Shown here: positions 3,001 through 6,000 of the stretch, in pieces | How the letters are laid out: every line of letters starts with the position of its first letter | Numbering within the stretch: the stretch's first letter is position 1 | Assembly (NCBI GenBank): GCA_038087875.1 | Contig: JAXLNO010001955.1 | Span: 124,001-171,815, forward strand | Source: Malacoraja senta | Lineage: Eukaryota | DNA: 47,815 bases | Direction: 5' to 3' | Made by a program: the position numbers

Positions 3001-6000
3001 TTGGGTGAGGGAGAGGGATGCCAGTCTGAGCAGTGAACTGGGAATCACTGCTTTTCAGTTAGCTTTGAGCTGTTTCTTTATCAAAAAGAAACTTTATGTT
3101 TCTGTACAATGTTTACATATTCTGTTGTGCTGCAGCCAGTAAGAATTTCAATGTTCTATCTGGGACATCTATCTTCTTCTACACTATTACTAAAACTCTC
3201 ACCTTGACCACTGCGTTGTAGACTAAGGTATCCTATATCGCTAGGGTTTTTAAGCCACCTTACTCACCGTTCTCTTCTGCTCCAAGCGCACCAAGTTTTG
3301 TTCCGATCGGTGAAATATGAGGAAAGTTATTGGTCTGTTATTCGCCAGGACGGCAACGCCCCTTCCGGCTCCTGCTGTCAATCACTGGCCACGAGAATAA
3401 CGCTGAAGGAGCGGGGTCTGTGTTCTGTGAGCGGGGGCCCACACTGCCCCCTCCCACATACACCCCCTCCCCGCACAAGCCCCACCACACCCCCATCCCC
3501 TCACCCCCACCCTCCCCTCACCCACTCCTCTCCCACACATTACTCCACACTCCCCTCCCCCACACTACCCCCACCACACACACCACCCCCTCCAAAATAC
3601 ACCCCTTTCCGCATGCACCCCCTCCCCTACCCGCACAACTCCGCCCCCCAGGCCCCCTCCCCCTGCTACAGAACGCTCCCGTCGTTGAGTTGGGGGAACA
3701 GGTGAGTGGTGGAATATTGCGTTGGGGGACCAGCCCTCCCGTGTGAACATGGGACCCAACGGGTCCCACTTAGTCTAGTATGACAATAAAACTCTCTTGA
3801 CTCTTGACTTGATGACTGATTAGACTGCAAAATAATTCAACTACAAACAATTTGTAATAAAAACAGAGCATTCAGGAGATACCCAGCAAGTCAGGCAGCA
3901 TCTGTGCAGGATAAAACACAGCTCACATTTCAGGATGATCTTTCAGCAACAAATATTATCAAACCTGCTGAGTATTTTCCATGATTAACTATTGGAGTCA
4001 CTTACCACCCATGAATACCCACTGACAGCAGCTTCTTCTTCACTTGAAACCTCTCCTTCATAGGGTCCAAAATGAACGCCCCTGGGAATAACCTTCCCTT
4101 CATTCCAGACGCCAAGACCAGCTTTACAAATTTTGGACGTGGCAATGCTGAGACCCTCTGGAAGAGTTAAACGTGCTCTATCTGGGTGATTGGAATCAAC
4201 GACAGTGTCCTTCATAAAGACTGGTGGGCCGTGCACAGGGCATTCTTCAATAAAAAAATTCTCTCAGGCTTCACAAACTGAAACAGAAAATGCAAAATTA
4301 AGAACTAATCAGGGTGTTGGCATTATTGAAAGTGGCTGGACTTTGTACTGAAAATGCTCAATGATCCACAAAAGATGTTATCTTTTTAGAAGTATCTCAG
4401 AATATAATACTACCAGAAGATTACTCTTCTGAGGAAGCATTCAAAATGTGAGAGGTTAATAGTGGCCAATCTGTAAAGAATCCCTTCATGATGTCTGTCT
4501 GTCACCATGAATATCTTGGGGGGAAGATGCCGCTATTTAATTCCAAATGGCAGCTGTGTTGAACTATATGGATATTGATAAACATCAAGAGAAAAATCCT
4601 GACCACAGAGTATAATTTTAAATATAGTAATAACAAGCATGATGTAATGCAGAGAGTATGTTTCACGGTAACATGGGTACATGGTGTCAACTCCAAGAAA
4701 TGTGTGTTGAAGGATAAAAGTCTATTATGTGAACTAATGAAGCATTTGTAACCAGGCAGATGAATTAAGACCATAGACATAGACAATAGGTGCAGGAGTA
4801 GGCCACTTGGCCCTTCGAGACATTCAATGTGATCAAGGGTGATCATCCACAATCACTATCCCGTTCCTGCCTTCTCCCCGTATCCCTTGTCTCCGCTAGC
4901 CCTCAGAGCTCTATTTAACTCTCTCTTGAATGCATCCAGTGAATCGCCCGCCACTGCCTTCTGAGGAAGAGAATTCCATAAATTCACAACTCTGGGTGAA
5001 AATGTTTTTCCTCATCTCAGTTCTAAATAGCCTACCCCTTGTTCTTAAACTGTGGCCCCTGGTTCAGGACTCCCTGAACATTCTCAAATTAGGAGAGCAA
5101 AATGGCACACAATACTCCAGGTGTGGTCTCAACATGGACATTTATAACTACAGAAGGACCTCTTTGCCACTATACTCAAATCCTCTCGGCAGGAAACATG
5201 TTCCCGATATTCGGGGAGTCCAGATCCAGTTTAAGAATAAGGGGTAGAACATTTAGAATGGAGATGAGGAAAAACTTTTTAGACAATACACAATAGGTGC
5301 AGGAGTAGGCCATTCGGCCCTTCGAGCCAGCACCGCCATTCAATGTGATCATGGCTGATCATCCCCAATCAGTACCCCGTTCCTGCCTTCTCCCCATATC
5401 CCGACCGCTATTTTTAAGAGCACTATCTAGCTCTCTCTTGAAAGCATCCAGAGAACCTGCCTCCACCGCCCTCTGAGGCAGAGAATTCCACAGACTCACC
5501 ACTCTGTGAGAAAAAAATGTTTCCTCGTCTCCGTTCTAAATGGCTTACTCCTTATGCTTAAACTGTGGCCCCTGGTTCTGGACTCCCCCAACATCGGGAA
5601 CATGTTTCCTGCCTCTAGCGTGTCCAAGCCCTTAACAATCTTATATGTTTCAATGAGATGCCCTCTCATCCTTCTAAACTCCAGAGTGTACAAGCCCAGT
5701 TGCTCCATTCTCTCAGCATATGACAGTCCCGCCATCCCGGGAATTAACCTTGTAAACCTACGCTGCACTCACTCAATAGCAAGAATGTCCTTCCTCAAAT
5801 TAGGGGACCAAAACTGCACACAATACTCCAGGTGTGGTCTCACTAGGGCTCTGTACAACAGCAGAAGGACCTCTTTACTCCTATATTCGATTCCTCTTGT
5901 TATAAAGGCCAACATGCCGTTTGCTTTCTTCACTGCCTGCTGTACCTGCATGCTTACTTTCATAGACTAATGTACAAGGACCCCCAGATCCCGTTGTACT

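What the first reader, a model, noticed from the sequence alone, without database searches (positions are those of the whole stretch)
4006..4277. PRDM9-like exon with a stop codon exactly at a zinc-knuckle cysteine
The exon is well conserved (splice sites intact, FGPYEG catalytic tyrosine retained, no indels), yet the second Cys of CxxC is TGA. This suggests a recently inactivated PRDM9 copy or a null allele, relevant to whether this lineage uses PRDM9-directed hotspots. A weak GAG acceptor ending at 4263 would skip 15 nt in frame, removing the stop and two zinc ligands, so a knuckle-less isoform is possible.
Basis: partly seen in the sequence, partly recalled or inferred. Interest (0 to 1): 0.65.

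Follow-up and report, generated by a model that had tools for sequence, protein, structure and literature searches.

The report
PRDM9 exon with premature stop
This is one genuine exon of the recombination-hotspot gene PRDM9, from a non-mammalian vertebrate, cut short by a stop codon at a zinc-binding position, so it is most likely a disabled copy or null allele of a gene that vertebrates have lost many times.

Summary
Minus strand 4277-4006 is a 272-nt internal exon with a strong acceptor and a consensus donor. The 86 codons after the stop match solved PRDM9 PR/SET structures without gaps (116.5 bits, E 4.5e-33, against 70.3 bits for PRDM11). Codon 4 is TGA (4266-4264) inside a C-x2-[stop]-x7-C-x2-H pattern. 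Anchoring the exon's tyrosine to Tyr276 puts the stop at residue 208 of the pre-SET zinc knuckle.

It is the only PRDM9-type piece in the window. Only 1 of 488 minus-strand and 0 of 242 plus-strand stop-free segments hit a PR/SET family, and none hit KRAB, SSXRD or C2H2. No SECIS element was found.

The best reading is a real nonsense change that makes this copy a null, either a young pseudogene or a segregating allele. Assembly error, an old relic exon and recoding or alternative splicing remain as lesser rivals. A stop on a knuckle cysteine is not statistically remarkable (about 3 of 36 routes). The lineage, paralog count and read support could not be checked. Interest is modest: this is a new member of a known kind.

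The parts
4006..4277 (-). Internal coding exon of a PRDM9-type gene (272 nt). It encodes the pre-SET zinc knuckle and roughly the first third of the PR/SET domain, and is interrupted by one in-frame stop.
   Evidence: sequence and frame. (PRDM9 chains at 116.5, 114.5 and 114.1 bits, gapless over 86 aa). (Pfam PRDM2_PR, 41.6 bits against a cutoff of 27).
4278..4300 (-). Canonical 3' splice site: a pyrimidine-rich tract ending in CAG.
   Evidence: 15 of 20 pyrimidines at -23..-4.
4000..4005 (-). 5' splice site (donor) GTAAGT directly after the last codon. Protein homology ends here.
   Evidence: The alignment ends at the last exon codon.
4264..4266 (-). In-frame TGA, codon 4 of the exon frame, at the position expected for the second zinc ligand (residue 208 in human and mouse numbering).
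   Evidence: The numbering is inferred.
4231..4275 (-). Pre-SET zinc-knuckle segment. Cys is at 4275-4273, the stop at 4266-4264, Cys at 4242-4240 and His at 4233-4231. Three of the four expected ligands are present.
   Evidence: The later Cys and His are conserved in the PRDM9 chains. describe the pre-SET region as a zinc knuckle.
4060..4062 (-). Tyrosine codon of FGPYEG, equivalent to catalytic-pocket Tyr276.
   Evidence: query position 68 aligns with chain position 82 of the 221-aa chain and 83 of the 175-aa chain. Searches give Tyr276, Tyr341 and Tyr357.
4263..4264 (-). The exon would start at 4262, skipping 15 nt in frame. It is weak and there is no evidence that it is used.
   Evidence: 12 of 20 pyrimidines. 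It lies downstream of the strong AG and of a further AG at 4270-4269.
3810..4770 (.). Island of sequence that is unique within the window and carries the exon, flanked by interspersed-repeat copies.
   Evidence: in a self-BLAST of 3000-5500 against the window, no second copy lies between about 3808 and 4771, and many copies start from 4772 upward.

Best explanation
The window carries one authentic internal exon of a PRDM9-type gene.

Shown:
- The exon has good splice sites.
- It has clear, gapless PRDM9 homology.
- Its fourth codon is a stop, where the second cysteine of the pre-SET zinc knuckle belongs.

Inferred:
- The stop is a real single-base nonsense change in the sequenced genome.
- It lies 258 nt upstream of the next exon junction, so the mRNA should be a target of nonsense-mediated decay (the 50-55-nt rule, established knowledge).
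- Any protein made would end before the SET domain and the zinc-finger array. It could neither bind DNA nor deposit H3K4me3 or H3K36me3.
- This copy is therefore a null: either a young pseudogene (possibly one of several paralogs) or a null allele still segregating.
- It is young because 272 nt carry only this one disabling lesion and both splice sites are still consensus.
For: -: exon bounds, frame, stop and splice sites.
- three PRDM9 chains at 114-116.5 bits, gapless, with 50-51 of 86 residues identical. PRDM11 scores 70.3 bits with a gap, and PRDM4 scores 28.5.
- Pfam PR domain above its cutoff.
- 1 stop in 90 codons. The remaining 86 codons are open, against 109 of 20000 shuffles.
- no SECIS element, so nothing suggests recoding.
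- the alternative acceptor is weaker than the canonical one.
[quoted passage not shown] A disabled copy is therefore a common outcome for this gene.
- Prior argument (inference with assumed error rates): true pseudogenising stops far outnumber base-call errors that create a stop in modern assemblies.
Against: - Only one exon can be seen, so it is unknown whether the rest of the gene is intact.
- There are no reads, no second haplotype and no related species, so a base-call error or heterozygosity cannot be excluded.
- The rest of the exon looks fully functional, which is also what an error in a working gene would look like.
- No other PRDM9 domain is present in 47.8 kb, and an opposite-strand class I-like gene occupies 21.6-47.2 kb. 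That fits a stranded relic as well as it fits a gene with very long introns.
Confidence: 0.58

Rival explanations
1. Old relic. The exon is a stranded remnant of a PRDM9 gene or paralog whose other exons have been deleted, rearranged or eroded. The stop is just the first visible lesion in a long-dead locus.
For: -: 0 of 488 minus-strand segments of at least 30 aa match KRAB, SSXRD, SET or C2H2.
- 0 of 242 plus-strand segments of at least 45 aa do.
- nothing SET-like is seen by eye in the 4 kb downstream.
- the exon is a roughly 1-kb unique island among repeat copies.
- the upstream side holds an opposite-strand gene from about 21.6 kb.
Against: - There is one lesion in 272 nt, both splice sites are consensus, the alignment to PRDM9 is gapless and the conserved residues are kept.
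- With about 4.4% of substitutions creating stops (35 of 801) plus frameshifting indels, long neutral decay should have left several lesions (inference).
- The neighbouring gene has introns of about 18 kb and 7 kb, so missing neighbour exons within 4 kb, or even 43 kb, is weak evidence.
Confidence: 0.14
2. Artefact. The gene is intact and the TGA is a consensus or base-call error of the assembly, or a somatic or rare variant of the sequenced individual.
For: Everything else in the exon looks functional. A single substitution is enough. No read-level data are available here.
Against: - A substitution error would have to hit one of about 36 stop-creating routes out of about 810 in this exon.
- The stop is not inside the adjacent T-run, where length errors would occur and would shift the frame.
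- Base-call errors that create stops are rare compared with real pseudogenes (inference with assumed error rates, not measured for this assembly).
Confidence: 0.13
3. The gene still works despite the TGA. Three routes are conceivable:
- Selenocysteine insertion or programmed read-through at the stop.
- Use of the downstream AG (exon start 4262), giving a knuckle-less protein.
- A transcript or translation start downstream of the stop (next in-frame ATG at 4215-4213), giving an N-terminally short, SET-plus-fingers protein like the partial orthologs of some fishes.
For: - An in-frame TGA aligned with a cysteine of homologues is the classic signature of a selenoprotein gene.
- The 15-nt skip is in frame.
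- Partial PRDM9 orthologs without N-terminal domains exist and are under constraint (Baker 2017 passages).
Against: - No SECIS match at gathering score in the whole window.
- None among the 5 hits at E<=5 in 1-6000, and none among the 4 hits at E<=1 in the whole window. The 3' UTR is probably outside the window, though.
- The alternative AG has the poorer tract and follows a strong AG. Using it would remove two of the four zinc ligands of a fold-organising element.
- The 16 codons between the stop and the ATG are still well conserved with PRDM9 and PRDM11. That argues they were coding until recently.
- PRDM9 is not among known vertebrate selenoproteins (recalled).
Confidence: 0.06

Closest known systems
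PRDM9 PR/SET domain of mouse and human (PDB 4c1q, 4ijd, 6nm4; the species of these entries is recalled)
   Same: - Gapless alignment over the 86 residues after the stop, with 50-51 of 86 identical.
- Conserved Cys and His of the knuckle, the conserved glycine-rich SET motif, and the Tyr276 equivalent.
- A pre-SET knuckle followed directly by the SET domain, as described.
   Different: - A stop replaces the second knuckle ligand.
- Only about 59% identity, so this is a distant (non-mammalian) homologue.
- KRAB, SSXRD, the rest of SET and the finger array are not in the window.
Known PRDM9 losses and pseudogenes in vertebrates: canids, birds and crocodiles, several fish and amphibian clades (Baker 2017; Cavassim 2022; passages read)
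   Same: A PRDM9 locus that cannot encode the complete protein. It is the same kind of event as the at least 13 independent losses.
   Different: - Here a single nonsense codon sits in an otherwise pristine exon.
- 12 of the 13 documented losses are old.
- Whether this is the lineage's only copy, or a fixed change, is unknown.
PRDM11 (PDB 3ray), the paralog that arose from PRDM9 before jawed vertebrates diverged
   Same: The pre-SET half is similar, and several residues there are shared with PRDM11 rather than with mammalian PRDM9.
   Different: It scores 46 bits lower, needs a gap, and the SET-proper part of the alignment is poor.
Partial PRDM9 orthologs (teleost PRDM9-beta and others lacking KRAB and SSXRD)
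   Same: They would also lack a working N-terminal part.
   Different: All PRDM9-beta genes and the holostean partial ortholog carry substitutions at one or more of the three catalytic tyrosines. Here the one tyrosine that can be seen is kept, and the knuckle region was evidently coding until recently.
Selenoprotein genes (in-frame TGA paired with Cys in homologues, SECIS in the 3' UTR)
   Same: A TGA at a position where homologues have cysteine.
   Different: No SECIS was found in the window. A structural zinc ligand is not a typical selenocysteine site (established knowledge, recalled).

Membership tests
PRDM9 | PR/SET domain closest to PRDM9 rather than to other PRDM proteins | tested here: met
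   One search returned 8 distinct PDB sequences at E<=0.01. The three PRDM9 chains lead (116.5, 114.5 and 114.1 bits), followed by PRDM11 (70.3), PRDM4 (28.5), MECOM (22.3) and PRDM2 (20.3 and 20.2). Only the first third or so of the domain is present. No phylogeny was possible.
PRDM9 | Complete pre-SET zinc knuckle (four ligands, C-x2-C-x7-C-x2-H) | tested here: not met
   Cys, stop, Cys, His. Three of the four ligand codons are present and the second is TGA.
PRDM9 | Catalytic tyrosines Tyr276, Tyr341 and Tyr357 | tested here: inconclusive
   The Tyr276 equivalent is present (codon 4062-4060). The other two lie in exons outside the window.
PRDM9 | KRAB-related domain | tested here: inconclusive
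   0 of 488 minus-strand segments (>=30 aa) and 0 of 242 plus-strand segments (>=45 aa) match KRAB at E<=0.01. With introns of 7-18 kb in the neighbouring gene, the exon may simply lie outside the window.
PRDM9 | SSXRD motif | tested here: inconclusive
   The same scans gave 0 matches. The motif is short and may escape a scan at E<=0.01, or may lie outside the window.
PRDM9 | C-terminal C2H2 zinc-finger array, rapidly evolving | tested here: inconclusive
   There are 0 C2H2 matches on either strand (same scans). Only 4 kb of sequence lies downstream of the exon.
PRDM9 | Uninterrupted reading frame | tested here: not met
   There is one in-frame stop in the only exon seen.
PRDM9 | Germline (meiotic) expression | not testable with these tools
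   No expression data are available.
PRDM11 | Best match to PRDM11 over PRDM9 | tested here: not met
   70.3 bits with a gap, against 116.5 bits gapless.
PRDM7 (primate duplicate of PRDM9) | Near-identity to the primate PRDM9 PR domain (97% between the two human proteins) | tested here: not met
   At most 51 of 86 residues are identical to any PRDM9 chain in the PDB (my count).
Selenoprotein gene | SECIS element in the 3' UTR | tested here: inconclusive
   No SECIS match in the window. The 3' UTR is most likely outside it.

The most novel reading that the evidence does not exclude
This is the lineage's only PRDM9 gene and the stop is fixed. That would be a young, datable loss of PRDM9 in a non-mammalian vertebrate with a large, repeat-rich genome, caught when one nonsense codon is still the only lesion in this exon. 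It would let the switch from PRDM9-directed to default (promoter-like) hotspots, and the expected co-decay of ZCWPW1 and ZCWPW2, be studied near its start. A still bolder reading is not excluded but is far less likely (about 1 in 100): the TGA is decoded as selenocysteine or read through, and the gene works.
Probability: 0.12. Interest if true: 0.6.

Novelty: new member of a known kind. Interest (0 to 1): 0.3.

Why it matters
PRDM9 decides where meiotic recombination hotspots form, and it has been lost repeatedly in vertebrates. According to Cavassim 2022 (passages), nearly all documented losses are old. A locus with a single fresh lesion could therefore mark either a recent loss or merely a dead paralog or a rare null allele.

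Which of these it is determines whether the species is of interest for the evolution of hotspot control. From this window alone the finding is an ordinary example of a disabled copy of a gene that is often disabled. Its practical use is as a flag to annotate the locus carefully and to check the rest of the genome for an intact copy.

Tried and rejected
**Reading the exon through the stop**
- By reference, the tools refuse translations that contain a stop.
- A query with the stop marked was also not accepted. The direct alignment across the stop therefore stays unchecked and was replaced by residue numbering from Tyr276.

**Primary structural paper**
- Wu et al. 2013 is not held, so the ligand list is only recalled.
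- In one paper 'zinc knuckle' means a different element, the single finger after SET. This is a naming trap.

**Other PRDM9 exons**
- Inspection by eye and Pfam scans of 730 stop-free segments found none.
- Not scanned: segments under 30 aa on the minus strand and under 45 aa on the plus strand (242 of the 453 plus-strand segments of at least 30 aa were scanned). Poorly conserved linker exons would be missed in any case.

**Selenocysteine**
- Rfam found no SECIS at gathering score or with permissive thresholds.

**Lineage**
- The protein atlas gave only 'Chordata'.
- The neighbouring gene's best structure match, 9ch4, has no informative name and no paper in the library.
- For the alpha1 exon the scores are 42.3 bits for the unidentified class I entry 8jqt, 40.4 for nurse-shark class I, 39.2 for carp, 29.4 for Xenopus and 28-31 for chicken. 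This is a weak lean to a fish-grade lineage.
- The repeat families look like ones I recall from cartilaginous fishes, but that is recollection only.

**Other checks with no result**
- No tRNA genes.
- No duplication of the exon within the window.

- No eukaryotic sequence collection or protein search was available, so there are no orthologs, no dN/dS, no phylogeny and no paralog count.
- The one genome collection on offer holds only bacteria and archaea and was not used.
- Structure prediction was not run. The sequence match to solved PRDM9 structures is already decisive, and a single-sequence model would add little.

**Rejected idea**
- That the position of the stop is in itself significant.

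Full report
**What is there**

The window (47,815 bases, no N) carries a 272-nt exon on its minus strand from 4277 to 4006.
- The acceptor is a pyrimidine-rich tract ending in CAG at 4278, with 15 of 20 pyrimidines at -23..-4.
- The donor is a consensus GTAAGT starting at 4005.
- Two bases complete a split codon, and the frame then runs from 4275.
- The frame reads Cys-Glu-Ala-TGA, with the stop at 4266-4264. It then continues with 86 open codons to the donor.
- Only 109 of 20,000 shuffles of those 258 nt stay open.

**What it is related to**

The tools refuse a translation that contains a stop, so I searched with the 86 residues after it.

Against all solved structures, 8 distinct sequences pass E<=0.01:
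- Three PRDM9 chains lead: 4c1q at 116.5 bits (E 4.5e-33), 6nm4 at 114.5 and 4ijd at 114.1.
- All three align end to end without a gap.
- PRDM11 follows at 70.3 bits with a gap, then PRDM4 (28.5), MECOM (22.3) and PRDM2 (20.3 and 20.2).

By my count from the match lines, 51 of 86 and 50 of 86 residues are identical to the PRDM9 chains. Pfam gives the PR domain at 41.6 bits against a cutoff of 27. The protein atlas puts the fragment among chordate PR-domain clusters.

So this is a PRDM9-type exon from a distant, non-mammalian homologue. At under 60% identity to every PRDM9 chain, I do not take the window for human. PRDM7 is a primate duplicate 97% identical to PRDM9 in this domain and is excluded.

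**Is the stop at a zinc ligand?**

The sequence shows C-x2-[stop]-x7-C-x2-H directly. The later Cys (4242-4240) and His (4233-4231) are conserved in the PRDM9 chains. Reviews describe the pre-SET element as a zinc knuckle that organises the SET domain (passages).

The numbering works out as follows:
- The exon's FGPYEG tyrosine (4062-4060) is query position 68.
- It aligns with chain position 82 of the 221-residue chain and 83 of the 175-residue chain, whose construct is residues 198-368.
- Only one offset makes a tyrosine in this stretch fall on a published catalytic residue, namely Tyr276.
- That offset puts the stop at residue 208, the preceding Cys at 205, and the later Cys and His at 216 and 219.
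- These agree with the ligand list I recall from Wu et al. 2013, a paper I could not read.

A direct alignment across the stop could not be obtained and remains unchecked.

One paper uses 'zinc knuckle' for a different element, the single finger after SET.

**Is the position remarkable?**

No. The 89 sense codons offer 35 single-substitution routes to a stop, and each cysteine codon offers one. A nonsense change in this exon therefore lands on a knuckle cysteine about 3 times in 36.

**Surroundings**

The exon sits in a stretch of about 960 bp (roughly 3810-4770) that is unique within the window. Multi-copy repeats begin at 4772.

I scanned every minus-strand stop-free segment of at least 30 aa (488) and every plus-strand one of at least 45 aa (242 of the 453 that reach 30 aa) against Pfam at E<=0.01.
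- The exon itself is the only PR/SET hit.
- No segment matches KRAB, SSXRD, SET or C2H2 fingers.
- The other hits are reverse transcriptase, endonuclease and immunoglobulin or class I domains.
- Nothing SET-like is visible by eye in the 4 kb downstream.

On the opposite strand lies a class I-like gene, whose exons I searched one at a time:
- The alpha1-like exon is at about 21609-21872, the alpha2-like exon at about 39933-40085 and the alpha3-like exon at about 46966-47229.
- All three are closest to PDB 9ch4 (135, 58.7 and 121.3 bits).

The introns of that gene, about 18 kb and 7 kb, show that long introns are normal here. The absence of neighbouring PRDM9 exons is therefore only weak evidence that they no longer exist.

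**How it most likely works**

As it stands, the stop lies 258 nt before the exon's donor. By the 50-55-nt rule (established knowledge), the mRNA should undergo nonsense-mediated decay. Any product would lack the SET domain and the fingers.

The copy is therefore a null. One lesion in 272 nt, with consensus splice sites and a gapless match, argues that the loss of constraint is young. About 4.4% of substitutions here make stops (35 of 801), and frameshifting indels add to that, so a neutral divergence above roughly 0.05-0.1 per site would probably have left more damage. This is a rough inference, and the indel rate is assumed.

Whether it is a fixed pseudogene, one dead paralog among several, or a segregating allele cannot be told. 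[quoted passage not shown]

**Rivals**

- **Assembly error.** It cannot be excluded without reads, but it needs a substitution at one of a few dozen stop-creating routes.
- **Old relic.** It fits the empty surroundings but not the exon's good state.
- **Rescue by selenocysteine.** There is no SECIS: 0 hits at gathering score in the window, 0 of 5 permissive hits in 1-6000 and 0 of 4 in the whole window. The 3' UTR is probably outside the window, however.
It is in frame (exon start 4262, 15 nt skipped). Against it: it has 12 of 20 pyrimidines, follows the strong AG with another AG (4270-4269) in between, and would delete two of four zinc ligands.
- **A downstream start.** One at the next in-frame ATG (4215-4213) would give a short protein. 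However, the 16 codons before that ATG are still conserved with PRDM9 and PRDM11.

**What stayed open**

- The species is unresolved. The atlas says only Chordata.
- 9ch4 could not be identified.
- For the alpha1 exon, the unidentified class I entry 8jqt (42.3 bits), nurse-shark (40.4) and carp (39.2) class I entries outscore frog (29.4) and chicken (28-31). That is only a weak hint.
- No eukaryotic sequence collection or protein search was available, so there are no orthologs, phylogeny, dN/dS or paralog count.
- In four literature searches, no listed title or abstract start reports a PRDM9 stop at the pre-SET knuckle. I did not read those papers in full, and the supplementary tables of the two comparative studies were not visible.

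**Verdict**

This is a new member of a known kind, a disabled PRDM9 copy or allele, and of modest interest unless it proves to be the lineage's only copy.

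Noticed in passing
window 21609-21872 (+), about 39933-40085 (+), about 46966-47229 (+): Three exons of an MHC class I-like gene (alpha1, alpha2, alpha3) on the strand opposite the PRDM9 exon. All three are closest to PDB 9ch4, an unnamed 'Ig-like domain-containing protein' (135, 58.7 and 121.3 bits), and much further from classical class I. The introns are about 18 kb and 7 kb. Pfam gives MHC_I just below its cutoff for alpha2 and C1-set at 71.6 bits for alpha3. The leader, transmembrane and cytoplasmic exons were not located.
   Followed up: partly
window 5499-9209 (-), 9775-11436 (+), 25638-27265 (+), 27827-28894 (-), 36234-37784 (+), 41205-42694 (-): Many fragments of LINE-type retrotransposons on both strands, with hits to reverse transcriptase, AP-endonuclease and zf-RVT. 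Their 3' ends recur at least eight times in the window at 75-90% identity. By recollection only, this LINE family resembles ones that are abundant in cartilaginous fishes.
   Followed up: partly
window 12078-12458 (+), 24210-24518 (-), 38452-38967 (+): Three related open segments that by eye look like the nuclease-type C-terminal module of Penelope-like retroelements. There was no Pfam match at E<=0.01.
   Followed up: no
window 33637-35423 (+): A run of long open segments (up to 269 aa) that by eye resemble a hAT/Buster-type transposase remnant. There was no Pfam match at E<=0.01.
   Followed up: no
window 31363-31937: A tandem array of a 59-bp unit, 9.6 copies, 89% matches. In one minus-strand frame it reads as a repeated proline- and serine-rich peptide.
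   Followed up: no
window 18887-19238; also 19198-19277 (-) and 29876-29956 (+): A 124-bp unit repeated 2.8 times. Copies of this element fold like hairpins and give sub-threshold microRNA-family matches: mir-1270 at 34.2 bits against 90, and mir-515 at 37.6 bits against 68. This is most likely a hairpin-forming interspersed repeat and not a microRNA gene.
   Followed up: no
window 152-429 (-): A cysteine-rich open segment, in two overlapping frames, with weak matches to the Tesmin/TSO1 CXC and MSL2 CXC domains (22.4 and 21.6 bits, both below their cutoffs). It lies 3.6 kb downstream of the PRDM9 exon on the same strand. It is probably transposon-derived and not part of the PRDM9 gene.
   Followed up: no
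window 3200-3770: A G+C-rich, low-complexity stretch just downstream of the exon, open in several frames on both strands and proline- or glycine-rich when translated. Tandem Repeats Finder reports no array there.
   Followed up: no
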